DNA of 64,000 nucleotides from a virus. The position numbers were made by a program, and so were the translations under genes. Below the pieces are notes generated by a model. It had not been told where the DNA came from. It did not search any database and was given only the letters and a program-made list of their open reading frames with translations. This document shows positions 26,801 through 41,675 of this stretch, in pieces (position 1 is the stretch's first letter; every line of letters starts with the position of its first letter). Location of the stretch: the IMG/VR virus record IMGVR_UViG_3300045988_153745. One strand, 5' to 3'.

Positions 26801-27240
26801 TGTGAAGCATTTGCATATGAACCAGCTACTTGCGCACCAATATTTACTCTTGCGTTTGTTTTTTCAGTATCAGTTAATCCCTGAGACCCAACAGTAGACA
26901 CAGCTTTAAAATTCCCAACATTACCAAGTCCAATTTCACTTGCAGTATATGTAGGTTTTGTTTTCTGTTTTGCCCAACTAGGTACATCACTTGCTGGCAT
27001 GCTTGTGGGTTTATTTTTTATCGCAGCATCACCGCTTGTTGCATTCCAATCTGGTTGGGGTCTCCAAGTATCAGTATCAGTAAATTTTGCATTAGCAGGA
27101 ACATCTATATTAACAGTATGATTGTTAACTTTTGTTGCATTATCTGCGGAAGCCGCTGATGCAACTTTAGCTTTGCTAATATATTCTTTTAATTTGGTAG
27201 TATATTTAGTTAGACCAATTTTAGTTAAATATTTACCCAT
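23854..27240 (-). CDS. Tail fibre / receptor-binding protein
   Basis: 1128 aa. The protein contains repeated HTHG/SHTH...ITSG motifs, a Gly/Ser/Thr/Ala-rich beta-helix-like repeat region (SHAEG...TASG) and a conserved C-terminal domain. Confidence 0.7.
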   Translation of the reverse strand: MGKYLTKIGLTKYTTKLKEYISKAKVASAASADNATKVNNHTVNIDVPANAKFTDTDTWRPQPDWNATSGDAAIKNKPTSMPASDVPSWAKQKTKPTYTASEIGLGNVGNFKAVSTVGSQGLTDTEKTNARVNIGAQVAGSYANASHTHGNGDITSLDASKITSGTIDIDRLPQGALDRLVKVADDTARFKLTTKDVQLGDSVKVTSTKKMYIVVDETKLSSEAGYEPYTADSATSVPWSGVTGKPSTYTPSSHTHTKSQITDFPTSMPANGGNSATVNGHTINSNVPANAKFTDTDTWRPLGTTADTACAGNDSRLTNARPASDVYAWAKASTKPTYSKSEVGLGKVDNTADADKSVKHAATAGSANSVAWSNVSGKPALGNAASKTTRGLNATAASGWKDATTDGAYVPDMTFIAYWNGAYSNTASNLAYCNKGAFGTAATANKGDFAVANHTHSYNNLTNKPTIPSVGNGTVTITQNGATKGSFTMNQGGNTTIALTDTITSGRVTAGAKAGSIIGQYATAEGSNTTASGKVSHAEGNYSSALGQYSHAEGSSGTASGEASHSEGNATEATGFCSHAEGNYTLASGQMSHASGCGTQATRFCSYSEGLTGKATGVGSHVEGTYAVGYMGQGADCYTEVDVTIKEIPTSQLSTVRTTTGLPNVKYYMYYTNESSSLNYLPDAVQESIDNGGNVVHLFDNPLSVDEFYQFTPSQIKQVTIPSVINKPALYFGNPSFTDERILKSLLNKNLKKIWIAASFNRTYTYSLASGAASHCEGGGNTASGHYSHAEGVCTKASGVRSHAQGNSTVASGITAFASGCSTTASGQSSFAGGCDSIASQTNSFAVGSSTKASHYCAFSEGLQTEANASYCHASGFNTIASNQCSYSMGHFNTAMITGGSPSNKIGTALSIGNGSSTSARSNAFSVQFSGITKAANTITASTTADYAEFFEWLDENPNAEDRVGYFVTLDGDKIKIAEANDDYILGVISGAPFVLGNGDCDVWNGMYLRDEFRRLKEEPAPKMIRVKNKETKKYESQIIEGEYEGTRFVLNPNYDSSQEYKSRFDRPEWAAVGMLGVLPVRHDGTAQVNGYVTVGANGIATACEKTAENAYRVIKENSDSVVEIIFR

Positions 27241-27279
27241 TTTATTCTCCTTTCTAAATAAATAAAAAAAGAACGAGAA

Positions 27280-27891
27280 TTACTTCTCGTTCTTTTCATC
27301 TACTGTATAAACATAACCTTCATCACCTAATACACCAGACTCCTTATCTAAATCAATAACCCATTTAGGTAATTTTTCTCTAAGTGTATCAAATTCTTCT
27401 TTTCCGTTATAAGGCGCTGTTTTTACTTTATTCATAAATTCAAAAAATGTAATCTCTGGAATTATATTTATCATATCCTGAGCCATTCCCGCATATTGAG
27501 CAGTATACATAGTTTTTAAAATTTCTTCATTAATCTGATTTTCAATTTCTTTATAGCAACTATGATAAAATCTTTTTGCATTAAAAAGATTCTGTTCTGC
27601 AAACATTGGTTTTTCATTTAAACATTTAATATAGCTAAAATAATGAGAAACCATCTGCTCAACTGTAAATCGAGTAATTCCTCCATTGAAAGGATTTTTC
27701 TTTTTACAAAATTTAATTGCATTAATTGCCGCAGCGGTTGAACCAACAAGACATAAATCCCAATTGTATAATGGAATTCCGCCATTTTCTTCTATGCCTA
27801 TTCTTGTAATAGAGTGTTCTGAACCAGTCCTCCAAAGATAGATAGGGTCTTCAATACGATTTATCATTAATGGAGAACCTTCTATACTCAT
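27280..27891 (-). CDS. Hypothetical protein, possibly the downstream exon of an intron-split glycosyltransferase gene
   Basis: 203-aa ORF with no consensus promoter or RBS upstream. The frame stays open about 13 codons upstream of the annotated Met. Confidence 0.45.
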   Translation of the reverse strand: MSIEGSPLMINRIEDPIYLWRTGSEHSITRIGIEENGGIPLYNWDLCLVGSTAAAINAIKFCKKKNPFNGGITRFTVEQMVSHYFSYIKCLNEKPMFAEQNLFNAKRFYHSCYKEIENQINEEILKTMYTAQYAGMAQDMINIIPEITFFEFMNKVKTAPYNGKEEFDTLREKLPKWVIDLDKESGVLGDEGYVYTVDEKNEK

Positions 27892-28996
27892 TCGTATTTC
27901 CCAGTTAAATTGTCCGTCTTCCCGATATATTCAGTATAGTTCGCTAAGCTATACCCGTTCTCTTATGAACTGCTAAATATCTCTATCTAGTCTAGACTAT
28001 ATCACCAACTTTTAAAAAGTTGTCTGCCATTTCGGATTGCTTAATCCTACTCCTCCGCCGAGGATAGTCGTTGAACCTTCTTAACTAATAATAATTAAAT
28101 ATAAATAAAATGATAGCCACCTGTTGTTTTTCTTTTTCCATTACATACAGCCGAGATTAATCTAAAATTTAATCCCATTTGTCGACCTGCTTCATGCGCA
28201 CTATCAAAAATAACATTTGTTTCAAGACATTTAACTTGTTTTGACTGTCCATGATTTTCTATAGTTTTATAATCTATTTTTCCTTTTTCATTATATTCAT
28301 CAAGATACATAAAATGATGACCTTTGATTTGACCTTGTAAATGATTACAAACTCTAGACAAATCACCTTGACTAATTCCTAATTGATTAGCACATTCCAT
28401 ACAACCATCATAAATTTTTAAAGTATCAGTATCAATAATTTTTCGTTTTTGACCATTAAGAATTGAAGACCCTCCTCCTTTTATATTATAACCTTTAAGA
28501 GGGTCACAACTATTATATAAAGAAATATAATAGATTTCATATTGATTTAATTCTTCTCTTTTACATTCTTTTAAAATTTCCCATGAAAAATTTTCAATAC
28601 CTGTCTCCCTAATTTCTTTATCAAGGACTCCATGATAATGCTTCTCATTACTATAGTTTTTAAAAAAATGGTCTTTTATTCGAGATTCAATATTGATACT
28701 TTGACCAATATAAACTTTATTATTTATATTATTAGTAATTTTATAAATACCTATCATTTTATTTAATAACTCCTTTTTATTAAAAATTAGATAGCTATTA
28801 TTTTATATTTTATTATTAGTAAGCTTGGCTGCTGATTGCCCATTGTTTTATAATATTTTAGGATTCCTCCATGATACATCTCTTAACTTATTTCTGCTTT
28901 CGCCCTATTATATAAAATATAATAGTATAAGAGCTTTAGGGGTTTCCAGCAATTAAACAGATTTTTCATTACCCCTCACAGGGTAAAGCCACTGAA
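27892..28996 (-). mobile_element. Putative group I intron carrying a GIY-YIG homing endonuclease ORF
   Basis: The endonuclease ORF is flanked by 203-nt and 239-nt non-coding segments that lack the otherwise ubiquitous promoter motif. GACTA-containing core-like elements are present. The flanking ORFs look like two halves of one GT2 gene. Confidence 0.45.
28095..28757 (-). CDS. GIY-YIG homing endonuclease
   Basis: The N-terminal GIYKITNNINNKVYIGQS...R...H motif is present. The protein is 220 aa with a C-terminal DNA-binding-like region. Confidence 0.8.
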   Translation of the reverse strand: MIGIYKITNNINNKVYIGQSINIESRIKDHFFKNYSNEKHYHGVLDKEIRETGIENFSWEILKECKREELNQYEIYYISLYNSCDPLKGYNIKGGGSSILNGQKRKIIDTDTLKIYDGCMECANQLGISQGDLSRVCNHLQGQIKGHHFMYLDEYNEKGKIDYKTIENHGQSKQVKCLETNVIFDSAHEAGRQMGLNFRLISAVCNGKRKTTGGYHFIYI

Positions 28997-29554
28997 TTAG
29001 TTAATGGCGCGCAATTCAGAAAACTTAATTCCAGCTTCTCTAAGGAATGAAACTCGATATAAACGACCAAATACCCAAGGATGTGTAACATCATTACGCG
29101 GCATCATTCTCGGAGGCACGCCCTGCCCCATCTGAATTAATTGTTGTTTTTCTGCAACACTCATCTTACCTTGTTCTATCTCTTGGAAGAATGGACCTTG
29201 TACTTCAATACAATTTGGAGTTGTATTATCTAATAGACTTTCAATAGAAAATGGTGAAATAAAAATATCATCAGCATCTATAAAAGTTATCCATTCCGCA
29301 GTACAGGCATCTAATGCTCTTTGTCTTGCAATACCAGGACCCGCGTTTCTATCACAGTTTACTGTAATAATTTCTAAATCTGGATATAATGTTTTTAAAA
29401 AATCATATTTTCCATTATCTGCGGGGTCGTCATTAGCAATAATAACCTGGCATCTACTCTTATAACTCTGTATCTGAATAGATGCCAAAGTATCTTTTAT
29501 TGTTTCTATTGCATGAAAAGCAGGAATTCCAATAGCTACATCTTTCTTACTCAT
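28997..29554 (-). CDS. GT2 family glycosyltransferase N-terminal domain, possibly exon 1
   Basis: IGIPAFHA...IQSY...VIIANDDPAD...ITFIDADDIF are GT2 DxD-region signatures. A 185-aa ORF is short for GT2. Confidence 0.65.
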   Translation of the reverse strand: MSKKDVAIGIPAFHAIETIKDTLASIQIQSYKSRCQVIIANDDPADNGKYDFLKTLYPDLEIITVNCDRNAGPGIARQRALDACTAEWITFIDADDIFISPFSIESLLDNTTPNCIEVQGPFFQEIEQGKMSVAEKQQLIQMGQGVPPRMMPRNDVTHPWVFGRLYRVSFLREAGIKFSELRAIN

Positions 29555-29606
29555 TGCAATAATCTCCTTTTATCTCTTTTATTCAATTATATCATATTTT
29601 TTAGAA

Positions 29607-30830
29607 TTATGCAAACATTGCTGCAATTTCTGCATCTGTAATAGGAGTAAGCTCTTCTGCAGTTTCATCAACTACAATAGTAATTGTAGTATCATCAATC
29701 TTACCTGCGGCTTTAGCTGCAGCTATCTCTGATTCTGTTCCCATAAATACACGAGAATCAATATATGCTTTAACTGTTGATGCTTTTGCATTAACTTTAT
29801 AATCCGTTCCAAGAACAGAAGTTAAAAATGCTTCATCAATAGCAACATCCGCATATGTAGGTGTTACACTCTCACTTGAAGCTACTGTACAAATATATAA
29901 TTTATTTCCGCTTAAATATACTTCACCAACTTTAGCTGTTGTTGGAAGTGTAGCAATAGTTCCTTTAAATACAAGAGATTCACCAGTTGCGGCAATGCTA
30001 TCTAATACTTCTTGTGATAACATAGCTTTTGTGATTGCTGCATTATCAATAGTTGCAGAAATCTTATTATTAGAACCAACAACTACTTTAATAATATTGT
30101 TATCAGTACCTTCATAAACATCAACTAAATCTTTAACATATATATAAATTTTTTGATTATCAGCAGTTCCCTCTTGAACATTAATAATTAATTCAATATA
30201 TTTTCCAAGTTTATCATCTGTTACACCATCTGGTAATGCAAGAATATTCTCACCATCTTGATAGTATAATTCTCCAATTTTAGTAAAATCAGTTATTTTA
30301 CCTGATTTAACCAAGAAATCTTTAGGAATATCAACTTTGCCAATTTCTGCACCATTCTGTGTAAAAGTATATGTCTTTAAAGCACCTTCTGTTGTAGTGC
30401 TAGTTGTGATAGATACTGTTGCATGCTCTTTAATTAAATTCTTAATAGAACCTTCAACACTATCTTCACCTTCAAGTTTAGTAATTTCTTTTTGTAAATT
30501 ATCAATATCTGTAGTAATAGAAGTAATATCTACTGATATTTTATCTGTTTTATCTTCATCAAAAAATAAATCAATATAAACCTTATCAGTATCTTCCCTA
30601 AGTTCACCAGATTTTAATACTTTACTAAAAGGAATATTTATTTTAGATGCAGTTCCTGTAGGTAAACCTGAATCATTAACACCTTGATAAATTTCATAAG
30701 TTGCGGCATAGCCAGTCTCAGGTGTCTCTGCAGCTTTGATATAAACTTTATTATATTTTTTAATCGCTGCGTCATAAGCTACAAGACCTTCTTTGTCTAA
30801 ATATTTAGCCATTAATTTATCTCCTCTCAT
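29607..30830 (-). CDS. Hypothetical structural protein
   Basis: 407-aa ORF within a structural/lysis block. It has no recognisable catalytic motifs. Confidence 0.45.
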   Translation of the reverse strand: MRGDKLMAKYLDKEGLVAYDAAIKKYNKVYIKAAETPETGYAATYEIYQGVNDSGLPTGTASKINIPFSKVLKSGELREDTDKVYIDLFFDEDKTDKISVDITSITTDIDNLQKEITKLEGEDSVEGSIKNLIKEHATVSITTSTTTEGALKTYTFTQNGAEIGKVDIPKDFLVKSGKITDFTKIGELYYQDGENILALPDGVTDDKLGKYIELIINVQEGTADNQKIYIYVKDLVDVYEGTDNNIIKVVVGSNNKISATIDNAAITKAMLSQEVLDSIAATGESLVFKGTIATLPTTAKVGEVYLSGNKLYICTVASSESVTPTYADVAIDEAFLTSVLGTDYKVNAKASTVKAYIDSRVFMGTESEIAAAKAAGKIDDTTITIVVDETAEELTPITDAEIAAMFA

Positions 30831-33738: not shown

Positions 33739-33798
33739 ATCCTTGTTCCTCCTTAATTTAAAAATAAGCGTACTTTAATTATTAAAGTACGCTTTAAT

Positions 33799-33870
33799 AC
33801 TCCCATTCAGAGTCGAACTGAAATCGTTAGATTAGAAATCTAATGTTCTGTTCCATTAAACTATAGGAGT
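33799..33870 (-). tRNA. tRNA-Arg (UCU)
   Basis: Acceptor ACTCCTA/TGGGAGT, anticodon arm TTAGA-TTTCTAA-TCTAA, T arm TTCAG-TTCGACT-CTGAA. Confidence 0.7.
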
Positions 33871-33947
33871 AAAACTAGACAGTTGTTATAAGGTTTTTTG
33901 CTAAAACTTACTTATTATAAATTTGCTGTTTCTGTCTGAAAACCATC

Positions 33948-34033
33948 AAAAGGGACTTGAACCCAATATAGACAATCTTAATTTTTACTCTTACATAATT
34001 GTCAACACTTTAAGAGTAAGTGTAGCCTTTCCT
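33948..34033 (-). ncRNA. Atypical tRNA-like element with a T-arm-like GGGTTCAAGTCCC and a 10-bp internal hairpin
   Basis: The CTTACTCTTA...TAAGAGTAAG 10-bp stem with a 17-nt loop replaces a normal anticodon arm, and the acceptor pairing is poor. Confidence 0.3.
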
Positions 34034-34058
34034 TTCAGCTAACATGATGGCTATAAGC

Positions 34059-34130
34059 ACGCCCAGCAGGAGTCGAACCCACATACACTGTTTTGGAGAC
34101 AGTAGTCCTAGCCATTAAACGACAGGCGTG
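34059..34130 (-). tRNA. tRNA-Trp (CCA)
   Basis: Acceptor ACGCCTG/TGGGCGT, anticodon arm ACTGT-CTCCAAA-ACAGT, T arm GTGGG-TTCGACT-CCTGC. Confidence 0.75.
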
Positions 34131-34183
34131 TATCCGCGGCAGGTGACGAATCCTGCCGTGTAGATGTCGTCATCATCTACAGC

Positions 34184-34268
34184 GCCGCGCCTGAGATTCG
34201 AACTCAGATACCCCTCACGAGGATGCGGGTTTTCAAGACCCGTGCTGTACCAGTTGAGCCAACGCGGC
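34184..34268 (-). tRNA. tRNA-Ser (UGA), class II
   Basis: Acceptor GCCGCGT/GCGCGGC, anticodon arm CGGGT-CTTGAAA-ACCCG, a long variable arm, T arm CTGAG-TTCGAAT-CTCAG. Confidence 0.8.
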
Positions 34269-34275
34269 AATAAGT

Positions 34276-34346
34276 GCGGAAATGGAGACTCGAACTCCAA
34301 CTGAGTGGTTCGTAGCCACTTCGTCTATCCATTAGCGTATTCCCGC
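34276..34346 (-). tRNA. tRNA-Arg (ACG)
   Basis: Acceptor GCGGGAA/TTTCCGC, anticodon arm AGTGG-CTACGAA-CCACT, T arm TGGAG-TTCGAGT-CTCCA. Confidence 0.75.
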
Positions 34347-34350
34347 AAAC

Positions 34351-34434
34351 GCGGGCACTAAGATTCGAACTTAGACACCCCGCATGAGGTGGAAGCATTA
34401 GCAATGCTTTGCGATACCTTTACACCATACCCGC
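34351..34434 (-). tRNA. tRNA-Ser (GCU), class II
   Basis: Acceptor GCGGGTA/TGCCCGC, anticodon arm AAGCA-TTGCTAA-TGCTT, a long variable arm, T arm CTAAG-TTCGAAT-CTTAG. Confidence 0.8.
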
Positions 34435-34436
34435 AA

Positions 34437-34712
34437 TTATTTATTTCTATAAACCTGAAGCCATGTTCGATAAATTCTCTTATAATCAGTATCGCCCCAT
34501 CTTAAACAGTTTAAATAATAAACTTCCCAAGAAGCAAAAATTTTGCAGTCACAAATATCATACTTTTCATAAATTTTTTTATAACTACTTCTTTTGATAA
34601 CTTCATCTGGATGGTCTTTTAACCACATACGAACTACTGAATTAGCAGTTCTTTTTTTCTCTTTTCCTTTGTGGTCACAATACCAATTATGTTTTTTATA
34701 ACTTCTGCTCAC
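34437..34712 (-). CDS. Hypothetical basic protein inside the tRNA array
   Basis: 91 aa with a Cys/His-containing motif. Confidence 0.4.
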   Translation of the reverse strand: MSRSYKKHNWYCDHKGKEKKRTANSVVRMWLKDHPDEVIKRSSYKKIYEKYDICDCKIFASWEVYYLNCLRWGDTDYKRIYRTWLQVYRNK

Positions 34713-35016
34713 TTATAATTCCTCCTTTAAAAAGAACTTATAGGTGAAAAGCTGTATGGATATCCTTTCTCATAATTATCTCCTTTCTACTGTTTATTTT
34801 TGTAAGAGATAACCACCTAAACAGCACTCCTAGAAAATTACTTCATGGACTGTCGCTAATAAAGCTCAGGGTTGCTGGTTTGTGTATCGTTACAAAAGAA
34901 GTCCTAAACCCTTTTTCTTCTTTTATCTTACATTAAAAGTATTAGCTGATTTATGGACTGATTACCTCATTTAACCTTTGAATCCTGACTCTCAGTTAAG
35001 GCACTAATATTTTAAT

Positions 35017-35089
35017 ACGCCCACCGAGACTCGAACTCGGGACCCTCAAATTAAAAGTTTGATGCTCTAGCCAACTGAGCTATAGGCGC
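35017..35089 (-). tRNA. tRNA-Lys (UUU)
   Basis: D arm GCTC-AGTTGGCTA-GAGC, anticodon arm TCAAA-CTTTTAA-TTTGA, T arm CCGAG-TTCGAGT-CTCGG. Confidence 0.85.
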
Positions 35090-35236
35090 AATAAGAGTAA
35101 CTATAAAGCTACTTTATATTAAAATTAAGAAATAATCTATTATGCTAGGCTCGTTATTTAATAACTTTAATATTTTAATATTTGTTTTTCTCAACCAGTA
35201 CTTACACTGAATTGCTGTTTAAGCCTTTAATAGAAT

Positions 35237-35309
35237 GGGGAGTAGAGGTATCGAACCTCTCCGCCTCGGGCTTCAACCGAGTGCTCTGCCACATATGAGC
35301 TAACTCCCC
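35237..35309 (-). tRNA. tRNA-Phe (GAA)
   Basis: Acceptor GGGGAGT/ACTCCCC, D arm GCTC-ATATGGCA-GAGC, anticodon arm CTCGG-TTGAAGC-CCGAG. Confidence 0.9.
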
Positions 35310-35423
35310 GAAAATGCGGTGTTGCAATTCCGCATAATCTGAACAAGTTTTGTTGCAACTTTTATCCTTATTCATAACCATCGACATCTAGTTTCCTATG
35401 TTTACCAATGCCGACTACAGAAT

Positions 35424-35496
35424 TGTGGTGAAAGGATTTGAACCTCTAACCTTTAGCTCCAGCCGCTAACGCTCTACCCGATTGAGCTACACCACA
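35424..35496 (-). tRNA. tRNA with a CUG anticodon (Gln-type) and a non-canonical anticodon loop GGCUGGA
   Basis: The acceptor, D arm (GCTC-AATCGGGTA-GAGC) and T arm are perfect, but positions 32/33 of the anticodon loop are GG. Confidence 0.5.
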
Positions 35497-35612
35497 GACA
35501 ATAGAACCTACAACCAATAAGAATTCTATTGTATAATATTTTGTTTCTTGCAAGAATTTTGTATTATCGCGGCGGTTGCCTCATTTAGGGGATTCCAAAC
35601 CCCTACGATAAA

Positions 35613-35683
35613 GCAGGTAACGGGAATCGAACCCGTCTATCCAGATTGGAAGTCTGGCGCACTAGCCGATGTACTACACCTGC
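35613..35683 (-). tRNA. tRNA-Gly (UCC)
   Basis: Acceptor GCAGGTG/TACCTGC, anticodon arm CCAGA-CTTCCAA-TCTGG, T arm ACGGG-TTCGATT-CCCGT. Confidence 0.85.
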
Positions 35684-36139
35684 ATTTAGCTATTTCCTAT
35701 CATGAGGTTGCAACCCTAAGATGCTTGTTATTCTGATAGGTCTTGCCTTCTGAGACTTGCTCTCTACATCTCAAACCTAACCGTGTGTCATTAGCTTAAC
35801 ATGCTTCATTACAAAGCATAACACCACCACTGGTCACTAACGCTCTTTAACCTCGGCTGTATTATCAACAGCATAGCTACAATACTGATAAATACTGCAG
35901 CACTAAACCAATTCTTGTACTTAAAATTTTGTTTAGTAAAATTAGAATACTGTGCTTAGCACAAAAACATTAAAGTCACCCTCAGACTTCTACTGAATCT
36001 TTCTGCTACTGGCAGACTGTTCTACAAATCATCCCTGCTATAGTCAAGAATTAATTTGATGTATAACTATGTATTAATCTTCAGTAACATCGTCATGTAC
36101 TTACTAATTAAAACTCATTATACTTAAACTATGGTGAAC

Positions 36140-36210
36140 GCTTCTAGTGGGAGTCGGACCCACCTCTATGCCGTGACAGGGCATTGTCCTAACCGATGAA
36201 CGATAAAAGC
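36140..36210 (-). tRNA. tRNA-Asp (GUC)
   Basis: Acceptor GCTTTTA/TAGAAGC, anticodon arm ATGCC-CTGTCAC-GGCAT, T arm GTGGG-TCCGACT-CCCAC. Confidence 0.75.
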
Positions 36211-36657
36211 AAAAATGACTTATCATTATATTAAAACTATTATTTTCTAAGTCCTAAGTTTTAGTATTTAATAAGTCATCAGTGTAATTTACAGCTGTAA
36301 GAATTAATAAGTAATAAGTAATAAAATCATCTGATATTCTTGAACATTTGCTGTATGGACTATATTTTGTTTACTAATGTTTAATTACAAAGCCCGCATT
36401 AATAAACTCTTTTAAAACCAAAAAAATACATTTGAACATTATTTTCTATCTATTAAAAGTAATATTGCGGTATGGGCTTTAATGAAGTATCGCAGCTCGG
36501 AAGCTCTACTTACATATGGTGTTTGTACAAAACATCTTTGTTTTCAGTATTAACTTTTATGGAAAACAATAATCTTTTATATTAGGTATTATAAAATCCT
36601 TATATAAAAAATTAAGAAAAGCTTAACAGAAGATTTTTAGGTAATCTCCAACCTAGT

Positions 36658-36740
36658 AGGGGAGGTGAGATTCGAACTCACTCAGCCCGAAGGCAACGGT
36701 TTTACAGACCGCCCCGACTCTCCAACTTCGGCGCTCCCCT
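36658..36740 (-). tRNA. tRNA-Tyr (GUA), class II
   Basis: Acceptor AGGGGAG/CTCCCCT, anticodon arm GCGGT-CTGTAAA-ACCGT, a long variable arm, T arm GTGAG-TTCGAAT-CTCAC. Confidence 0.8.
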
Positions 36741-36746
36741 ATAAAT

Positions 36747-36819
36747 ACTAGAAGCTAGAATCGAACTAGCAACCTGACGCTTATGAAACGCCTGCTCTAA
36801 CCATTTGAGCTATTCTAGC
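36747..36819 (-). tRNA. tRNA with a CAU anticodon, elongator Met or Ile2-type
   Basis: D arm GCTC-AAATGGTTA-GAGC, anticodon arm GGCGT-TTCATAA-GCGTC, T arm GCTAG-TTCGATT-CTAGC. Confidence 0.7.
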
Positions 36820-36831
36820 ACGCTTATTTTA

Positions 36832-37152
36832 TTAAGCAATTGCCGCAGCCTTCTTAGCTTTTGCCTTAGCTGCAGCTTCTTTCTCTTTAGCAATCTCATT
36901 ATCAAGTTTAGCAAAGATTGATGTTACGATTGCATAAGGAACTCTTGATGACTTAGCTTTCTCCGCCCTCTTGTCCTTTTCAATCCACCACTTCTTTGTG
37001 TAAGGCTTGTATGGATTTGCCTTATATACATAAGCTTTTCCAGCTTCACGCTTTGCAGCAAACTTTGCCTGACGCTTAGCTTCCTGAGCTTTATGAGCCT
37101 TTGTTCTACCACCATTTGATACTCTTGATACTCTCTTATTCTGTCCTGCCAT
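36832..37152 (-). CDS. Small, highly basic Lys/Ala-rich protein, possibly a nucleic-acid-binding protein
   Basis: 106 aa with a consensus promoter at 37196..37224. Confidence 0.5.
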   Translation of the reverse strand: MAGQNKRVSRVSNGGRTKAHKAQEAKRQAKFAAKREAGKAYVYKANPYKPYTKKWWIEKDKRAEKAKSSRVPYAIVTSIFAKLDNEIAKEKEAAAKAKAKKAAAIA

Positions 37153-37195
37153 AATATAAATCTCCTTTTCTTTTCCTTTTCTTTATTACATATAT

Positions 37196-37224
37196 ATTAT
37201 ATCATAAATTTTATATAATATCAA
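37196..37224 (-). promoter_or_regulatory. Consensus promoter
   Basis: Minus-strand reading: TTGATA ttatataaaatttatga TATAAT. Confidence 0.65.
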
Positions 37225-37351
37225 ATAGATTTTTATTTCCTTTTGTTTATATCAAGCGGGTAAGGTTGACATTATTGTCAACCAATCCGCTAACAGAAAG
37301 GAAATTTATATGAACTGAATTTTTAAAGGAAGAAATTCAGAAAAACCAAGT

Positions 37352-37423
37352 AGCGGGAGAGGGACTTGAACCCTCGACCTCGAGATAATGACTCTCGCGA
37401 GCTTCCAACTGCTCTACCCCGCG
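37352..37423 (-). tRNA. tRNA with a CAU anticodon and an unpaired C1xU72 acceptor end, possibly initiator-like
   Basis: D arm GAGC-AGTTGGAA-GCTC, anticodon arm CGAGA-GTCATTA-TCTCG, T arm GAGGG-TTCAAGT-CCCTC. Confidence 0.55.
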
Positions 37424-37634
37424 GCATTAAATTCTTTAAAAAAATATTTATTTAAGTTAAAGATTTGGCGGAATACATTTTTCAGTACCACTTTAAATGC
37501 GAAGACCTTTTACAACCAGTGGGAATATGTCCTCAAGTACATAAAGTCTTGAGTAAGCTGGAAACCAACCTCACTTTCCTCACATACCAAATCGGGCGAT
37601 TGGACCTGATCCATTTCAACTTAATTTATAATAT

Positions 37635-38363
37635 TTATATCAAAAACCATTCTTCATCAGAATAGGTCTTGATTTCTTTTTTTGTTCTAGGTAAATTTAA
37701 TTTATCGCACCATTTTCTAATAGCGTTATCTGATACTTGATAAATTTTACCTATCTCCGTAAAAGATTTATTACGGATTAAATCTTTTAAAGTATTTCTA
37801 TCTACAGGTAAATCATTTATTGATTTTATCTGTTGTTTGCTAAAGCATTTAATGCATCTATTAGAACCTTTTGAAATTTCTTTTCCACAATCAATACAAT
37901 AATATTTTTTAACATATGATTTTCTATTTTTACCATTTGTTGTATCAAGTTGCTGATTGCAATTAGGACAAACCCAACGAAGATTCTCTAATCTATCATC
38001 ATTATTAATTCCATTTATATGGTCAAGAATTAAAGTTAATTCTTTTCCTTGCCATACGGGTTTTTGTCCGCAAATAGAACAAACATATGAAGTATATCCT
38101 TTTTCTTTGTACCATTTTCTTAATGTTTTTTGTGCTGCGGTTGAATTTTCTATAAAAATATTTTCTTCATTTCTTTTTATAGAAGTATTATTTGCATTAA
38201 AATGACTTTTATCAAAATCTTTTGTTCTTTCTTCAAGAAAAATTTTTAAATCTCCTGAAAAAGAAGTATAACCTATTTTTTTAGCTAAATCTCTATAAGA
38301 ACTAGATAATTTAACTATTTGTTCTAATTCTTTTTCAGTATAATTATCAATAATTGAATTCAT
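37635..38363 (-). CDS. HNH homing endonuclease inserted in the tRNA array
   Basis: LDHINGINNDDRLENLRWVCPNCN is an HNH motif. There are zinc fingers and a C-terminal DNA-binding region. Confidence 0.75.
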   Translation of the reverse strand: MNSIIDNYTEKELEQIVKLSSSYRDLAKKIGYTSFSGDLKIFLEERTKDFDKSHFNANNTSIKRNEENIFIENSTAAQKTLRKWYKEKGYTSYVCSICGQKPVWQGKELTLILDHINGINNDDRLENLRWVCPNCNQQLDTTNGKNRKSYVKKYYCIDCGKEISKGSNRCIKCFSKQQIKSINDLPVDRNTLKDLIRNKSFTEIGKIYQVSDNAIRKWCDKLNLPRTKKEIKTYSDEEWFLI

Positions 38364-38448
38364 TTATCTTCTCCTTTATTGCTTTATCTTATACTTAATA
38401 TGAATTTTGAACTTAAATACTTGAACTTATTTGTCCAAAATATTTAAT

Positions 38449-38519
38449 GACTCTTGCCAGACTCGAACTGGCGTTTCTAGGATGAAAACCTAATGTCCTA
38501 ACCGCTAGACGAAAGAGCC
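38449..38519 (-). tRNA. tRNA-Glu (UUC)
   Basis: Acceptor GGCTCTT/AAGAGTC, anticodon arm TTAGG-TTTTCAT-CCTAG, T arm GCCAG-TTCGAGT-CTGGC. Confidence 0.8.
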
Positions 38520-38585
38520 AAGCTGCTAGGAAAAAATCCTAGCATATAGAAAAGAGGTAACTTATCAAAACTTCGCGTTTGAATG

Positions 38586-38657
38586 ACTTCTGCCAGATTC
38601 GAACTGACATTCTCGGGATGAGAACCCGACCTCCTGACCGATTAGAGGAAGAAGCCA
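38586..38657 (-). tRNA. tRNA-Glu (CUC)
   Basis: Acceptor GGCTTCT/AGAAGTC, anticodon arm TCGGG-TTCTCAT-CCCGA, T arm GTCAG-TTCGAAT-CTGGC. Confidence 0.8.
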
Positions 38658-38804
38658 AATCCAACTTATATTATACTCTAGTTGGCAAAGAGTAACTTCA
38701 CGTAGTCGCACGACCAAGATATTTTCTTGATAAAAGGTAACTCTATGTCTGGGTAAGTTAGACGGAAGTTACTAGCCACTTATAAACCCATATGTTATAT
38801 AAAT

Positions 38805-38833
38805 ATTATAACATAATTTTTTATAAAAATCAA
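38805..38833 (-). promoter_or_regulatory. Consensus promoter driving the leader plus the two tRNA-Glu genes
   Basis: Minus-strand reading: TTGATT tttataaaaaattatgt TATAAT. Confidence 0.65.
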
Positions 38834-39051
38834 TTTAATTTTTAACCTAGCGTTTCAGATACTTTTAGCTCAAAGAGGAGCTTACACGCATAGTCCACAA
38901 GTATCATTTTCGGGCTTTAGGATTCACTCTAAGTAGCTAGATTTAACTCCCTTGTTAATTCAAGTCTTCCCATCTCCGACTCTTAGAGGATGTTTACCTA
39001 TTTTTTATACCGTTGGCACACATCAAACGGTTTCCTTTATCTTATATAAAT

Positions 39052-39080
39052 ATTATAACATATTTTTTTATAAAAATCAA
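39052..39080 (-). promoter_or_regulatory. Consensus promoter driving an ORF-free, tRNA-free transcript of about 200 nt
   Basis: Minus-strand reading: TTGATT tttataaaaaaatatgt TATAAT. The next promoter lies 220 nt downstream. Confidence 0.6.
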
Positions 39081-39274
39081 ATATTTCTAAACTCGTGTAT
39101 GTATTATGAAAACTATTTAAAAATAGTGTTGTCTACATATTTTGCTGTAAGAGTTAATCATTTGATTTAAAAGACAGTTCGCTTCTGTCTGACATAGGCA
39201 GTATCTCATTATGCGCCCAGAGACTTTCCTATAATCTTCGTCTGACCTATCGCCGCGACACGCCATTCAGACCA

Positions 39275-39345
39275 GTGTTAAATTGAGAGACCGAGAGTCG
39301 AACTCGGATGACCTCCGTATCAGAGAGGCATACTAACCATTATAT
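39275..39345 (-). tRNA. tRNA-Ile (GAU)
   Basis: Acceptor TGAGAGA/TCTCTCA, anticodon arm CCTCT-CTGATAC-GGAGG, T arm CCGAG-TTCGACT-CTCGG. Confidence 0.8.
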
Positions 39346-39464
39346 TATCTCTCAAAAAAGCTAGACACCATTGATTAATTAAAAGGGAATAAAGCCTTTT
39401 ACTATTTTACATACAAATATTTTTGTTTGTTAGAATCATCAATTTTGCTGTTAGTGCCTAAAAA

Positions 39465-39533
39465 GTATCATGTAAGATTCGAACTCACTCTTCTAGGGAA
39501 TACCCAGCGTACAAACCATTATACGAATGATAC
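39465..39533 (-). ncRNA. Atypical tRNA-like gene with good acceptor, D and T arms but a 5-nt anticodon loop
   Basis: Acceptor GTATCAT/ATGATAC, T arm GTGAG-TTCGAAT-CTTAC. The anticodon region CTGGG-TATTC-CCTAG does not form a 7-nt loop. Confidence 0.35.
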
Positions 39534-39659
39534 ATATAAAATAACTTCAAAAGCTTGTTACTCACTAGTAAAGAAGAAAACTTTTATAAAAGATAAAACA
39601 ACCTTTTACAAGACTTAGTTATCATGTCTTTCTACCACAATTTAATTTCTTAGGTTAAT

Positions 39660-39741
39660 GCGGGATGTGAGACTCGAACTCACAACCTTCAACGAGGTAC
39701 GGATTTTAAGTCCGCCGTGTAAACCATTCCACCAATCCCGC
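39660..39741 (-). tRNA. tRNA-Leu (UAA), class II
   Basis: Acceptor GCGGGAT/ATCCCGC, anticodon arm GCGGA-CTTAAAA-TCCGT, a long variable arm, T arm GTGAG-TTCGAGT-CTCAC. Confidence 0.85.
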
Positions 39742-39907
39742 AAGTGGCGTTTTATTTTATTGTTGACGCCAAACAATCTAATTAAATCTTGAAATACTAA
39801 TTACAGGGCGTTTCCGCATAAAGATTTTCTGATTAGTATATTGTCATTTTCAAATGCTACTATAAAATCTTTTTCACATTTTTTTTCTTTTTCATATCTT
39901 ATATAAA

Positions 39908-39936
39908 TATTATATCATATTTTTTTATAAAAATCA
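39908..39936 (-). promoter_or_regulatory. Consensus promoter upstream of the Leu/Ile tRNA sub-cluster
   Basis: Minus-strand reading: TTGATT tttataaaaaaatatga TATAAT. Confidence 0.65.
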
Positions 39937-39949
39937 AAATATGATTAAA

Positions 39950-40021
39950 TGGAGCTAGTGGGGCTCGAACCCACGACCTTTCGCTTGCAGGGCGAATGCT
40001 CTCCCAACTGAGCTACAGCCC
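39950..40021 (-). tRNA. tRNA-Ala (UGC) with a G3:U70 pair
   Basis: Acceptor GGGGCTG/TAGCTCC gives the G3:U70 wobble. D arm GCTC-AGTTGGGA-GAGC, anticodon arm TTCGC-CCTGCAA-GCGAA, T arm GTGGG-TTCGAGC-CCCAC. Confidence 0.8.
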
Positions 40022-40022
40022 C

Positions 40023-40301
40023 TTATACCCAGTATCTATCATATAGTCTCAACATATTTGTTAAACCTACTGGATTTGCAGTATGAAAATTTAACTTATA
40101 GAATAATTCTTTTTCTATTAGATAATCCATTAAATAGATAGCATCACCGCCATCTTCAGCAAAATCACCTAAATCATGGTCTAAATCAATTAATTCTATA
40201 CTACTCTTGTTTTTCTCAATAAATAATATAGTTTCATTAACCGAATGACACCATATATATCCACTAGGTGCTTTTCTTAAATCATCAAGCCATATTTTCA
40301 T
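40023..40301 (-). CDS. Hypothetical protein that abuts tRNA-Ala
   Basis: 92 aa (MKIWLDDLR...LDHDLGD). The family was not recognised. Confidence 0.45.
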   Translation of the reverse strand: MKIWLDDLRKAPSGYIWCHSVNETILFIEKNKSSIELIDLDHDLGDFAEDGGDAIYLMDYLIEKELFYKLNFHTANPVGLTNMLRLYDRYWV

Positions 40302-40331
40302 AACATTCCTTTCTAGTACTGAAGTACTAAT

Positions 40332-40401
40332 TCTGGTTGAGAGAGTCGAACTCTCGTTACTGGGTTACAAAGCCAGGGTTCTACCATTAAACTAAACCAG
40401 A
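40332..40401 (-). tRNA. tRNA-Thr (UGU)
   Basis: Acceptor TCTGGTT/AACCAGA, D arm GTTT-AATGGTA-GAAC, anticodon loop TTTGTAA, T arm GAGAG-TTCGACT-CTCTC. Confidence 0.75.
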
Positions 40402-41040
40402 TTATAAAATTAAGAGGTTTTCCACCAATGTAAGACAAACCAATAAACTTACTTTTGGTAGGCTGTGTTTCGCTACTGGTTAGCGCTCTTCGCTCTCTCT
40501 ATCAACCACATATACAATCTTCCTTTAATTTGATTCTCGCATCTAGGAGTGTGTTATCCATATGCCGATATCTTTCTCCCCTACGGCTCCCATAATTCTC
40601 TCGAACTATTTTTCTTACGCATGTAGCCAACGACTATTATTCACACCTAATAGCCAGCGAGTTTTAATGTCTTTGCTTTGACATAATTACCCATGCAGGA
40701 CTCGAACCTGCATCTCCCCTTGTCGGAGTATTTTTCCAATTAATTTAAACTAACAGGCATTTCTATATGATTGCCGCCATATAGTCAAGGCATTTTGGTA
40801 TTTTTAATCCACATGCGGCAACATGCTTCATTCAATCAACCAACGAGGAATACTTTGAATGCCACCATTGGGTTCACTACGACGAACCGGCAAGAATCGA
40901 ACTTGCCACATTCTTCATTCATACCTCTACCGAACACTGAAATCTCTTCGGATATGAACATTGACAGTTTTAACAAGGTAACTGACAACTGACTGCTCGG
41001 TTTTGTTTAACCAGTTCCGCAACTGGAAGCTCCTCCCCTG

Positions 41041-41110
41041 GGAATCGAACCCAGATTCTCCGCTTAACAGGCGGGCATCCTACCCTTGAATGAGAGAGGA
41101 AAAATATTTT
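41041..41110 (-). tRNA. tRNA-Asn (GUU)
   Basis: Acceptor TCCTCTC/GGGAGGA, D arm ATTC-AAGGGTA-GGAT, anticodon loop CTGTTAA, T arm CTGGG-TTCGATT-CCCAG. Confidence 0.75.
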
Positions 41111-41131
41111 TTTTCTTTATCTTATATAAAT

Positions 41132-41160
41132 ATTATAACATAAATTTTTATAAAAATCAA
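41132..41160 (-). promoter_or_regulatory. Consensus promoter upstream of tRNA-Asn
   Basis: Minus-strand reading: TTGATT tttataaaaatttatgt TATAAT. Confidence 0.65.
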
Positions 41161-41338
41161 ATTACTATTATACGACCATAAGTAATTTGGTAGTTTTAAC
41201 TAGATTCCGCTAGTAGGAGATTTTGTTCTCTTGGGTAAACCGCAGCCTTAGTCGCTCTCCGTCAACCTCACCCTGTATACCTTCTTTTTTATAGAGGAGA
41301 AGCATGGGTAGTAACTTACCTCTTTTCTTTATATAAAT

Positions 41339-41367
41339 ATTATATCATATTTTTTTATATTTTTCAA
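41339..41367 (-). promoter_or_regulatory. Consensus promoter driving an ORF-free segment of about 180 nt (41161..41338)
   Basis: Minus-strand reading: TTGAAA aatataaaaaaatatga TATAAT. There is no ORF or tRNA before the next promoter. Confidence 0.6.
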
Positions 41368-41602
41368 GTTTGTACTTTATATAAAAAATATTTTATAATA
41401 CTTAAATCACTTTGTCCAAAAATTTTTAAAAATGGCTGTTTGTTATCAGCAGGTTGCCGCCCTAATAAAAAAACTTTAAGAAAGCTATTATCATAAAACT
41501 TGTCATCTTTAACGCAGTAACTCACGACTTATAACTCTTTGATAAGCAAGTCAACATATCTGATGCTGTATGTGCGCATTAAGAACTGATAAATTCTTAA
41601 AT

Positions 41603-41675
41603 GGACCTTCTGGGACTTGAACCCAGGACCATTCGCTTATGAGACGAGCGCTCTAACCAACTGAGCTAAAGGACC
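41603..41675 (-). tRNA. tRNA with a CAU anticodon, Met or Ile2-type
   Basis: Acceptor GGTCCTT/AAGGTCC with a U3xU70 mismatch. D arm GCTC-AGTTGGTTA-GAGC, anticodon loop CTCATAA, T arm CTGGG-TTCAAGT-CCCAG. Confidence 0.7.

What the first reader, a model, noticed from the sequence alone, without database searches (positions are those of the whole stretch)
27280..29554. Putative group I intron with a GIY-YIG homing endonuclease splitting a GT2 glycosyltransferase gene
The GIY-YIG ORF (28095-28757) is flanked by about 200 nt and 240 nt of non-coding sequence. Unlike essentially every other gene here, neither flank carries the consensus promoter motif. The upstream ORF (28997-29554) is a truncated GT2 N-terminal domain of 185 aa, with the DxD region present but the acceptor-binding C-terminal half missing. 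The downstream ORF (27280-27891) has no promoter or ribosome-binding site, and its frame stays open upstream of the annotated Met. The 3' flank contains GACTA-type core-like elements. A T4 td/nrdB-style self-splicing intron with an internal homing endonuclease gene is the simplest explanation.
Basis: partly seen in the sequence, partly recalled or inferred. Interest (0 to 1): 0.65.

Follow-up and report, generated by a model that had tools for sequence, protein, structure and literature searches.

The report
Mobile self-splicing intron splits phage glycosyltransferase

Summary
Confirmed. All genes here lie on the minus strand. The two "half" ORFs (29554-28997 and 27891-27280) are exons of one 397-aa GT2 gene. 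A sister contig (L003) carries the uninterrupted gene and lacks exactly window 29003..27923 (1,081 bp), with no gap, overlap or target duplication. The insertion follows a U that forms a U·G pair in P1, and it ends in G. Conceptual splicing gives ...LRA-M-EDG..., the sequence seen in hundreds of uninterrupted homologues.

A routine Rfam scan finds nothing, because a 715-nt loop holding the endonuclease gene splits the ribozyme. Scanned separately, each half hits RF00028 (5' half 31.6 bits, E=1.2e-6; 3' half 44.2 bits, E=1.7e-10). The 3' half is about 72-77% identical to T4-like nrdB and Staphylococcus Twort-like phage introns. A full P1-P10 fold can be drawn and shows strong covariation. The endonuclease sits in the P6a loop, has its own Shine-Dalgarno, and keeps the I-TevI catalytic residues.

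The exons are under purifying selection (dN/dS 0.03-0.13). Related phages carry no intron, or a different group I intron 73 nt upstream. Splicing and homing themselves remain untested.

Verdict: new member of a known kind.

The parts
29586..29615 (-). Promoter-like site for the split gene: TTTGCA, 18-nt spacer, TG-extended TATAAT. It contains the phage's recurrent ATGATATAAT motif.
   Evidence: 10 of 12 matches, TG present. (motif found 25 times against 1.66 expected; this copy at 29595-29586). Function as a promoter is inferred.
29004..29554 (-). GT2 exon 1 (551 nt: codons 1-183 plus the first two bases of Met184). Its Shine-Dalgarno AAAGGAG lies at 29570-29564.
   Evidence: L003 positions 1-1028 align to window 30031..29004 at 95.7% identity.
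27923..29003 (-). Group I intron, 1,081 nt (IA2-like, of the nrdB/Twort type). The first base is U29003 and the last base is the terminal G (omega-G) at 27923.
   Evidence: Exactly this stretch is absent from the intronless allele L003. RF00028 hits both halves. blastn matches known phage introns.
28988..29008 (-). P1 helix: GCCAUU (29008-29003) pairs with AGUGGC (28993-28988), with the U29004·G28992 wobble at the 5' splice site. The internal guide sequence continues as UUC (28996-28994), which can pair with exon 2 GGA (27922-27920) to form P10. The exon-1 ORF's stop codon TAA (28999-28997) lies in the P1 loop.
   Evidence: P1 appears in the unconstrained fold, in the constrained fold and in the RF00028 alignment. 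P10 was read from the sequence and is inferred.
28969..28986 (-). P2 hairpin: UUACCCU, loop GUGA, GGGGUAA.
   Evidence: Five of its 7 pairs show compensatory changes across four introns. The two substitutions in L008 keep the pairing.
28830..28961 (-). P3 5' strand (28961-28956), P4 (28951-28946 with 28835-28830) and P5 (28942-28940 with 28841-28839). P5 carries a roughly 90-nt extension that the relatives lack: stems 28933-28928/28885-28880 and 28925-28917/28913-28905, and a GCGAAAGC tetraloop hairpin at 28903-28896.
   Evidence: RF00028 alignment of the 5' half. Constrained fold. P3 and P4 are 100% paired, with 4 and 3 compensatory pairs respectively. The fold of the extension is predicted only.
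28810..28829 (-). P6 (GCC, 28829-28827) and the P6a 5' strand (28823-28810). Their partners lie at 28094-28075. Together they close the loop that holds the endonuclease gene.
   Evidence: The 14-bp P6a is found by unconstrained folding of the ORF-deleted construct. P6 shows a C-G to U-A change in L009.
28095..28757 (-). Homing endonuclease gene (220 aa: GIY-YIG domain plus NUMOD-like DNA-binding repeats) in the 715-nt P6a loop (28809-28095). Its own Shine-Dalgarno AAAGGAG lies at 28776-28770.
   Evidence: Pfam PF01541 and PF22083. Match to the I-TevI catalytic domain 1mk0, E=6.6e-5, with equivalents of Y6, Y17, R27, E75 and N90 conserved. About 30% identity to intron endonucleases of Lactobacillus, Enterococcus, Streptococcus and Staphylococcus phages. 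A source database names it 'group I intron endonuclease'.
27923..28094 (-). 3' half of the ribozyme. P6a/P6 3' strands 28094-28075. P7 GACUA (28069-28065) with UAGUC (27999-27995). P7.1 28064-28051. P7.2 28047-28034. P3 3' strand 28028-28023. P8 28022-28006. P9 27990-27973 (GAGA loop). P9.1 27970-27957. P9.2 27955-27933. Terminal G at 27923.
   Evidence: RF00028 44.2 bits, E=1.7e-10. 72-77% identity to nrdB and Staphylococcus phage introns. 89.8% of cells paired across 24 sequences against 33-44% in slid controls, with 217 compensatory cells. No substitutions against L008, while the endonuclease ORF has 14.
27280..27922 (-). GT2 exon 2 (643 nt: the third base of Met184, codons 185-397 and the stop).
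   Evidence: L003 positions 1029-2117 align to window 27922..26834 at 93.8% identity. Homologues read ...LRAMEDG... across the junction. dN/dS for exon 2 alone is 0.04-0.13.
27266..27297 (-). Intrinsic-terminator-like hairpin (14 pairs) followed by a T run, overlapping the exon 2 stop codon; the likely end of the transcription unit.
   Evidence: Function is inferred.

Best explanation
Window 29003..27923 (minus strand) is a mobile group I intron of the phage IA2-like type. Its closest described relatives are the T4-like nrdB intron and the Staphylococcus Twort-like phage introns. It is inserted in codon 184 of a 397-aa family-2 glycosyltransferase gene.

Proposed mechanism:
1. Shown from sequence: exon 1, intron and exon 2 lie between one extended -10 promoter (29615-29586) and one terminator (27297-27266). 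They are therefore probably one transcript.
2. Inferred from the conserved fold: the RNA folds into P1-P9.2. An exogenous guanosine bound in P7 attacks after U29004, the U of the U·G pair in P1. The freed exon-1 3'-OH then attacks after the terminal G at 27923, with exon 2 aligned by a short P10.
3. The result would be the junction ...GCGCCAU|GGAAGAC... and a full-length GT2 protein reading ...LRAMEDG....
4. The 220-aa GIY-YIG endonuclease encoded in the P6a loop is translated from its own ribosome-binding site.
5. Inferred by analogy with I-TevI: during co-infection the endonuclease cuts intronless alleles near the insertion site, and repair copies the intron in (homing). This would explain why closely related phage genomes differ in whether they carry the intron.
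For: 1. Precise insertion. The intronless allele L003 aligns up to window 29004 and resumes at 27922, with no gap or overlap. The spliced product has the same length as the uninterrupted homologue P0001 (397 aa) and is 97% identical to it. Hundreds of uninterrupted homologues of 392-402 aa read LRAMEDG across the junction.
2. Splice-site rules are met: the U29004·G28992 wobble in P1, a terminal G at 27923, and a P10 strand adjacent to P1 on the guide sequence.
3. RF00028 hits both halves: 31.6 bits, E=1.2e-6, model positions 1-133; 44.2 bits, E=1.7e-10, model positions 119-253.
4. The 3' half is 72-77% identical to introns in T4-like nrdB genes and in a Staphylococcus phage capsid gene. The latter introns score 95-104 bits against RF00028.
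5. Covariation. Across four introns, 96.7% of 243 cells are paired and 32 of 62 pairs show compensatory changes, against 34-43% paired in slid controls. Across 24 sequences of the 3' half, 89.8% are paired against 33-44%, with 217 compensatory cells.
6. The endonuclease has a GIY-YIG domain with the I-TevI catalytic residues aligned, plus a NUMOD-like DNA-binding domain.
7. The exons are under purifying selection. dN/dS is 0.03-0.06 between intron-plus and intron-minus alleles and 0.11 between two intron-plus alleles. All sampled intron-plus alleles keep both exons intact.
8. Presence/absence polymorphism. The clusters hold 30 truncated exon-1 ORFs (185-aa window-type and 159-aa upstream-intron type; one 353-aa member is uninterrupted), 10 endonuclease sequences and 72 uninterrupted sequences, from contigs of about 145-156 kb.
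9. There is no promoter motif inside the unit.
Against: - There is no full-length RF00028 hit at or above the 50-bit gathering score, nor any hit in a 2.6-kb scan at E<=10. This is explained by the 715-nt loop, and an ORF-containing nrdB intron used as a control also scores only 33.9 bits.
- P5 has only 3 base pairs in my model, and the fold of its roughly 90-nt extension is only predicted.
- P10 has only 3 base pairs.
- P7 and P9.1 are invariant in the large alignment by construction, because they were part of the search pattern.
- Nothing here shows splicing, endonuclease activity or homing directly.
Confidence: 0.95

Rival explanations
1. A decayed intron that no longer splices. The GT2 gene would be a pseudogene in this strain, or its two halves would act as separate proteins.
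For: Splicing has not been observed. Default Rfam scans give no hit. P5 and P10 are short. Intronless alleles outnumber intron-plus alleles.
Against: All core helices pair, and the conserved P, Q, R and S elements are intact. The 3' ribozyme half shows no substitutions against L008, while the endonuclease ORF has 14. Exon 2 has no ribosome-binding site or promoter of its own, yet it stays intact with dN/dS 0.04-0.13.
Confidence: 0.04
2. A free-standing GIY-YIG endonuclease gene that landed between two independent genes, or that caused a gene fission, with no ribozyme involved.
For: Free-standing GIY-YIG (Seg-like) genes are common in phages; several hits are annotated SegB-like.
Against: Both flanks of the ORF match the group I model. 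The whole 1,081-bp unit, not just the ORF, is missing from the intronless allele. The halves join in frame into a protein collinear with uninterrupted homologues.
Confidence: 0.01
3. A genuine, splicing intron whose endonuclease is no longer active, so that it is now inherited only vertically.
For: Truncated endonuclease variants of 101 aa and 65 aa exist in the same protein cluster, although some may be contig-end fragments. No cleavage data exist.
Against: The window's ORF is full length with the catalytic residues aligned to I-TevI. It has a good Shine-Dalgarno sequence. Presence/absence among phages 94-96% identical in the flanks suggests recent mobility.
Confidence: 0.25

Closest known systems
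T4-like phage nrdB group I intron (subgroup IA2; in T4 it carries I-TevIII). The example used here is Klebsiella phage vB_KpnM_Biddle_MM4, locus L001.
   Same: The 3' ribozyme half is about 72% identical in DNA. It has the same P7, P7.1, P7.2, P8, P9, P9.1 and P9.2 layout, with compensatory changes. The 5' half shares the AAUUGCUGGAAA P element and the P1-P2-P3 layout. In both, the endonuclease ORF lies between the P6 strands. In both, the intron splits a conserved enzyme gene.
   Different: The host gene is GT2 rather than ribonucleotide reductase. The endonuclease is GIY-YIG here, whereas the L001 ORF is annotated only as 'intron-like DNA endonuclease'; from my own knowledge I-TevIII is of the HNH type. 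The window intron has a roughly 90-nt P5 extension that nrdB lacks.
T4 td intron with I-TevI
   Same: A GIY-YIG endonuclease inside a phage group I intron. The catalytic domain aligns with the I-TevI structure 1mk0 and the key residues are conserved. That the td ORF is looped out of P6a is from my own knowledge.
   Different: The catalytic domain match is weak (E=6.6e-5). The DNA-binding region here is NUMOD-like repeats, whereas I-TevI has a zinc finger and a helix-turn-helix (my knowledge). The host gene differs. The cleavage site is unknown here.
Staphylococcus Twort-like (Twortvirinae) phage introns in a structural gene (locus L002). The Twort orf142-I2 ribozyme has a crystal structure (my knowledge).
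   Same: About 77% identity over the 3' half. The fold is shared, with covariation. The introns sit in the structural-gene module, and several introns can occupy one gene.
   Different: The three strong L002 introns have no ORF and are about 230 nt long by the Rfam matches, scoring 95-104 bits against RF00028. The window intron carries an endonuclease gene and extra P5 elements.
GIY-YIG intron endonucleases of Lactobacillus (LL-Ku, Ld17), Enterococcus, Streptococcus thermophilus and Staphylococcus PH15 phages
   Same: These are the best full-length protein matches, at 28-31% identity over about 99% of the length. Several are annotated as group I intron endonucleases or as lying in or next to terminase genes.
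   Different: Identity is low. The host genes and host phyla differ.

Membership tests
Group I intron (Rfam RF00028) | Match to the family covariance model at or above the gathering score (50 bits) | tested here: inconclusive
   There is no hit in the whole-window scan or in the 2.6-kb scan at E<=10. Scanned as halves, the 5' half scores 31.6 bits (E=1.2e-6, model positions 1-133) and the 3' half 44.2 bits (E=1.7e-10, model positions 119-253). Each is significant, and together they cover the whole model, but neither reaches 50 bits alone. A genuine ORF-containing nrdB intron used as a control scores 33.9 bits. PMC11878797 reports the same splitting of hits by nuclease loops.
Group I intron | Conserved core helices P3-P8, including the P3/P7 pseudoknot, supported by covariation | tested here: met
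   A full model could be drawn. Across four introns 96.7% of cells are paired and 32 of 62 pairs are compensatory, against 34-43% paired in slid controls. Across 24 sequences of the 3' half, 89.8% are paired against 33-44%. P7 is invariant, so it is uninformative for covariation.
Group I intron | U·G wobble at the 5' splice site in P1, formed with an internal guide sequence | tested here: met
   U29004·G28992 lies within GCCAUU/AGUGGC. The position coincides exactly with the boundary defined independently by the intronless allele.
Group I intron | Terminal guanosine (omega-G) as the last intron base | tested here: met
   G27923 is the last base absent from the intronless allele.
Group I intron | Precise removal restores an uninterrupted, conserved reading frame | tested here: met
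   The 1,194-nt spliced coding sequence gives a 397-aa protein 97% identical to the uninterrupted P0001. Homologues are collinear across the junction.
Group I intron | Guanosine-dependent self-splicing of the RNA | not testable with these tools
   This needs in-vitro transcription with GTP, or RT-PCR. The only indirect support is purifying selection on the exons.
Subgroup IA (IA2-like) | P7.1/P7.2 insertion between P7 and the P3 3' strand, and homology with IA2 phage introns | tested here: met
   The hairpins at 28064-28051 and 28047-28034 show compensatory changes. There is DNA homology with the nrdB intron. The IA2 label of nrdB and Twort is from the literature (PMC11878797) and my own knowledge. 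No GISSD subgroup model was run.
GIY-YIG homing endonuclease (I-TevI-like) | GIY-YIG catalytic domain above the Pfam cut-off, with the catalytic Tyr, Tyr, Arg, Glu and Asn residues | tested here: met
   PF01541 scores 41.0 bits against a cut-off of 22.6. The alignment to 1mk0/1ln0 shows GIY, YIG, Arg (ESRIKDHF), Glu (YEIYY) and Asn (GYNI) at the I-TevI positions.
GIY-YIG homing endonuclease | Site-specific cleavage of the intronless allele, and intron homing | not testable with these tools
   Only population evidence is available: intron-plus and intron-minus alleles occur in near-identical phages.
GT2 glycosyltransferase (host gene) | Glycos_transf_2 domain with a DxD motif | tested here: met
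   PF00535 scores 54.9-57.4 bits. DADD lies at residues 93-96. The sugar and the acceptor are unknown.

The most novel reading that the evidence does not exclude
The GT2 gene of this phage lineage may be a contested homing site. Two different group I introns, with endonucleases only 35% identical, insert 73 nt apart. None of the nine alleles examined carries both. This could reflect active mutual exclusion, in which each endonuclease's cleavage and co-conversion tract erases or blocks the other intron, rather than small sample size or shared ancestry. The strict association of exon bases -3 and -6 with the window's intron would then mark either the co-conversion tract or immunity to the endonuclease.
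Probability: 0.2. Interest if true: 0.5.

Novelty: new member of a known kind. Interest (0 to 1): 0.35.

Why it matters
This finding corrects the annotation. Gene callers report three genes here, and source databases label the first simply as a glycosyltransferase. In fact there is one 397-aa enzyme gene plus a mobile intron.

It adds a glycosyltransferase in the structural/tail-fibre module of an uncultivated gut phage to the list of genes that host phage group I introns. That list is dominated by nucleotide-metabolism, polymerase, terminase, lysin and capsid genes. I found no report of such a host gene in two literature searches.

It is also a practical warning. Standard Rfam scanning misses group I introns that contain an ORF, so their frequency in metagenomic phages is probably underestimated.

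Finally, natural alleles with no intron, with the upstream-site intron (here called 'I1') or with the window's intron ('I2') provide ready material for studying homing and intron competition.

Tried and rejected
- Whole-window Rfam scan at gathering threshold, and a 2.6-kb scan at E<=10: no Intron_gpI hit. I rejected this as evidence of absence after the control and the scans of separate halves.
- Alternative splice-site pairs that also keep the frame, such as 29003/27921 giving ...RAIEDG... or 29013/27922 giving ...SELEDG...: rejected, because the intronless allele and all homologues read RAMEDG.
- The MFE pairing UGAUA/UAUCG (28004-28000 with 27927-27923) from the constrained fold: not adopted, because it would sequester J8/7 and the terminal G.
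- The Rfam alignment places the intron end at 27973: rejected. The real end is 27923, and the extra 50 nt form P9.1 and P9.2, which are conserved in relatives.
- Clustering of exon differences around the junction as a co-conversion signal: there are 5 mismatches within +/-20 nt against a background of about 5%. This is only marginal and I do not claim it.
- Searching GenBank phages for this phage or its GT2 gene: only remote hits of 24-30% identity.
- Looking for diverged copies of the same intron in more distant GT2 homologues (61-64% identical) in IMG/VR: all five such loci were uninterrupted.
Full report
**What is there**

All genes in this part of the window are on the minus strand. Reading 5' to 3' on that strand:
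- a 185-aa ORF at 29554-28997;
- 239 nt without a long ORF;
- a 220-aa ORF at 28757-28095;
- 203 nt without a long ORF;
- a 203-aa ORF at 27891-27280.

Pfam gives the following:
- The first ORF is a family-2 glycosyltransferase domain (PF00535, 57.4 bits, nearly the whole profile).
- The second is a GIY-YIG nuclease (PF01541, 41 bits) with a NUMOD-like DNA-binding domain (PF22083, 41.6 bits).
- The third has no match.

The phage uses a recurrent extended -10 promoter motif, ATGWTATAAT. It occurs 25 times in the window, 24 of them on the minus strand, against 1.66 expected. One copy sits at 29595-29586, just upstream of the first ORF, within a site that matches the sigma-70 consensus at 10 of 12 positions. 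There is no copy between 29554 and 27280. A 14-bp hairpin followed by a T run ends the unit at 27297-27266. The third ORF has no Shine-Dalgarno sequence, and its frame is open upstream to 27930.

**The decisive comparison**

I joined the two GT2 pieces conceptually and searched the 397-aa product against the protein database. This gave uninterrupted homologues of the same size. P0001 is 397 aa, 97% identical and covers 100% of the query. More than a hundred others of 392-402 aa are 64-78% identical. All of them read ...LRAMEDG(E/Q)... across the proposed junction.

The contig encoding P0001 (L003) has the same neighbouring genes. Its DNA aligns to the window as follows:
- L003 1-1028 matches window 30031..29004 at 95.7% identity.
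- L003 1029-2117 matches window 27922..26834 at 93.8% identity.
- Not one base of L003 is left over or used twice.

The window therefore carries an insertion of exactly 29003..27923 (1,081 bp) with no target-site duplication. The insertion begins just after a U and ends with a G. The split codon is AU|G, encoding Met184.

**Is the insertion a group I intron?**

The routine test fails. The whole-window Rfam scan at gathering threshold reports tRNAs and a riboswitch but no intron. A 2.6-kb scan at E<=10 also reports none.

The canonical P, Q, R and S core elements are nevertheless visible in the sequence:
- P: AATTGCTGGAAA, 28954-28943.
- Q: AATCAGCAGCC, 28837-28827.
- R: GTTCAACGACTA, 28076-28065.
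- S: GATATAGTC, 28003-27995.

A blastn search of GenBank phages matched window 28084..27922 at 72-77% identity to 329 records. I inspected two of the best:
- The intron in the nrdB gene of a T4-like Klebsiella phage, where the match ends just upstream of nrdB exon 2.
- The unannotated gap after a "truncated capsid protein" in a Staphylococcus Silviavirus.

As a control I ran Rfam on those two loci. The three ORF-less Staphylococcus introns score 95-104 bits against RF00028. The nrdB intron, which carries an ORF, scores only 33.9 bits, below the 50-bit gathering score. An endonuclease ORF inside the ribozyme therefore defeats the default search.

When each flank of the window's ORF was scanned as its own stretch, so that truncated matches are allowed, both hit RF00028:
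- 5' flank, 29012-28790: 31.6 bits, E=1.2e-6, model positions 1-133.
- 3' flank, 28094-27973: 44.2 bits, E=1.7e-10, model positions 119-253.

A published survey of Bastillevirinae introns describes the same behaviour of RF00028 hits split by nuclease loops (PMC11878797).

**Secondary structure**

I folded an ORF-deleted construct. Without any constraints it already gave P1, P2, P6a, P7.1, P7.2 and P8. With P1, P3, P4 and P6 imposed from the Rfam alignment, and the P7 strands reserved, it gave a complete model:

| Element | Window coordinates (minus strand) | Note |
|---|---|---|
| P1 | 29008-29003 / 28993-28988 | U29004·G28992 lies exactly at the boundary defined by L003 |
| P2 | 28986-28969 | |
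| P3 | 28961-28956 / 28028-28023 | |
| P4 | 28951-28946 / 28835-28830 | |
| P5 | 28942-28940 / 28841-28839 | carries a roughly 90-nt extension that includes a GAAA-tetraloop hairpin |
| P6 / P6a | 28829-28810 / 28094-28075 | |
| P7 | GACUA 28069-28065 / UAGUC 27999-27995 | |
| P7.1 | 28064-28051 | |
| P7.2 | 28047-28034 | |
| P8 | 28022-28006 | |
| P9 | 27990-27973 | GAGA loop |
| P9.1 | 27970-27957 | |
| P9.2 | 27955-27933 | |
| Terminal G | 27923 | |

The guide sequence continues 5' of P1 as UUC (28996-28994). This can pair with the first three bases of exon 2 (GGA) to form a short P10; that pairing was read from the sequence and is inferred.

P7.1 and P7.2 are the hallmark of subgroup IA. 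nrdB and Twort introns are classed as IA2 (literature, and my own knowledge).

**Covariation**

I aligned ORF-deleted versions of the window intron, the nrdB intron, one Staphylococcus intron and a second GT2 intron (described below), then counted pairs for the window-derived structure:
- 96.7% of 243 cells form standard pairs.
- 32 of 62 pairs show changes on both sides.
- None of 500 shuffles reaches these values.
- Sliding the 3' partners by 1-3 columns drops pairing to 34-43%.

I aligned 21 diverse 3' halves from these with the four above. That set gave 89.8% paired against 33-44% in slid controls, and 217 compensatory cells against 18-47. P7 and P9.1 are invariant there partly by construction, since they were in the search pattern.

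Within the window's own lineage, the L008 intron differs from the window's as follows:
- 14 substitutions in the endonuclease ORF.
- None in the 3' ribozyme half.
- Two substitutions in P2, both of which keep the pairing.

**The endonuclease**

The ORF lies entirely within the 715-nt terminal loop of P6a (28809-28095). It has a Shine-Dalgarno AAAGGAG at 28776-28770. Its N-terminal domain aligns with the I-TevI catalytic-domain structures (1mk0, E=6.6e-5). The GIY and YIG tyrosines, and the Arg, Glu and Asn of the active site, are at the corresponding positions. The best full-length matches, at about 30% identity, are intron or terminase-associated GIY-YIG endonucleases of Lactobacillus, Enterococcus, Streptococcus and Staphylococcus phages. 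One source database already labels this exact protein "group I intron endonuclease".

**Is the split gene still used?**

All sampled intron-plus alleles (window, L004, L008) keep both exons intact. For the spliced coding sequence:
- dN/dS is 0.03-0.06 against the intronless alleles.
- dN/dS is 0.11 between two intron-plus alleles.
- For exon 2 alone the values are 0.04-0.13.

Exon 2 has no promoter or ribosome-binding site of its own, so this selection is hard to explain unless the exons are joined. This is indirect evidence only. Splicing was not observed.

**Population picture**

The exact-sequence clusters hold 30 truncated exon-1 ORFs, 10 endonuclease sequences and 72 uninterrupted GT2 sequences. 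They come from human-gut metagenome contigs of roughly 145-156 kb. The phage is not in the GenBank phage collection.

Some members of the exon-1 cluster are 159 aa rather than 185 aa. In those contigs (L009 and L018-L021) the same gene is interrupted 73 nt further upstream, after coding nucleotide 478 instead of 551. The interrupting element is a different 970-nt insertion:
- It carries a 218-aa GIY-YIG ORF that is 35% identical to the window's.
- Its 3' half hits RF00028 at 40.1 bits, E=3e-9.
- It has the same P6a-loop architecture.
- Removing it restores ...THPWVFG....

None of the nine alleles examined has both introns. Exon bases -3 and -6 relative to the window's 5' splice site are C and C in the three intron-plus alleles. 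They are T and G/A in all six alleles that lack this intron. The -3 C pairs with G28990 in P1. The three intron-plus alleles are near-identical to one another, so this is not independent evidence.

**Verdict**

This is a mobile group I intron of the phage IA2-like type with a GIY-YIG homing endonuclease in P6a, splitting a GT2 gene. The kind of element is textbook; the host gene, the phage and the pair of alternative insertion sites are new examples.

What remains inferred is self-splicing, the activity and target of the endonuclease, and homing.

Noticed in passing
L009 4479-5448; also L018-L021: Related gut-phage contigs carry a different group I intron in the same GT2 gene, 73 nt upstream of the window's site. 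It is 970 nt long and holds a 218-aa GIY-YIG ORF that is 35% identical to the window's. Its 3' half hits RF00028 at 40.1 bits. No examined allele has both introns.
   Followed up: partly
window 29009 and 29006 (exon positions -6 and -3 from the 5' splice site): These two synonymous positions are C and C in all three intron-plus alleles, and G/A and T in all six alleles lacking this intron. The -3 C strengthens P1 (C-G instead of U·G). This could reflect co-conversion, endonuclease immunity or shared ancestry.
   Followed up: partly
window 20402-20475 (-): A c-di-GMP-I riboswitch aptamer (RF01051, 62.3 bits) lies in this phage, directly upstream of a 139-aa ORF (20355-19936) that has no Pfam match.
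   Followed up: partly
window 22522-22784 and 33798-41675 (-): There are 23 tRNA genes in two arrays, all on the minus strand.
   Followed up: no
whole window, e.g. 29586-29595, 23819-23828, 18750-18759 (-): A recurrent extended -10 promoter motif, ATGWTATAAT, occurs 25 times against 1.66 expected, 24 of them on the minus strand. It is usually embedded in AAAAWWTATGWTATAATATWTATAT and is often preceded by a hairpin-plus-T-run terminator.
   Followed up: partly
window 63145-63173: A 29-nt homopolymer run (T on the plus strand, A on the minus strand) lies just upstream of a TTGACA...TATAAT promoter-like sequence.
   Followed up: no
window 28916-28914 (loop of the P5-extension hairpin 28925-28905): The UUU loop of a perfect 9-bp palindromic hairpin is AAA in the otherwise near-identical intron of L008. 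This looks like a flip of the hairpin loop.
   Followed up: no
window 23854-27240 (-), compared with L009 6203-8046 and L018 5705-7168: The gene downstream of GT2 is a 1,128-aa tail-fibre or spike-like protein with a C-terminal Peptidase_G2 chaperone domain. Sister contigs that are otherwise 93-94% identical have unrelated genes in its place. This suggests a swappable receptor-binding module next to the glycosyltransferase.
   Followed up: partly
L009 1929-3940: Relative to the window (29600-29614), L009 has an extra roughly 2 kb holding a 73-aa and a 575-aa ORF between the 401-aa gene and GT2.
   Followed up: no
L002 2534-2591: In the Staphylococcus phage control locus, similarity to the window's P9.1/P9.2 tail continues about 50 nt beyond the end of the intron as called by Rfam, just as it does in the window. 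RF00028 alignments therefore seem to under-call the 3' end of this intron subfamily.
   Followed up: partly
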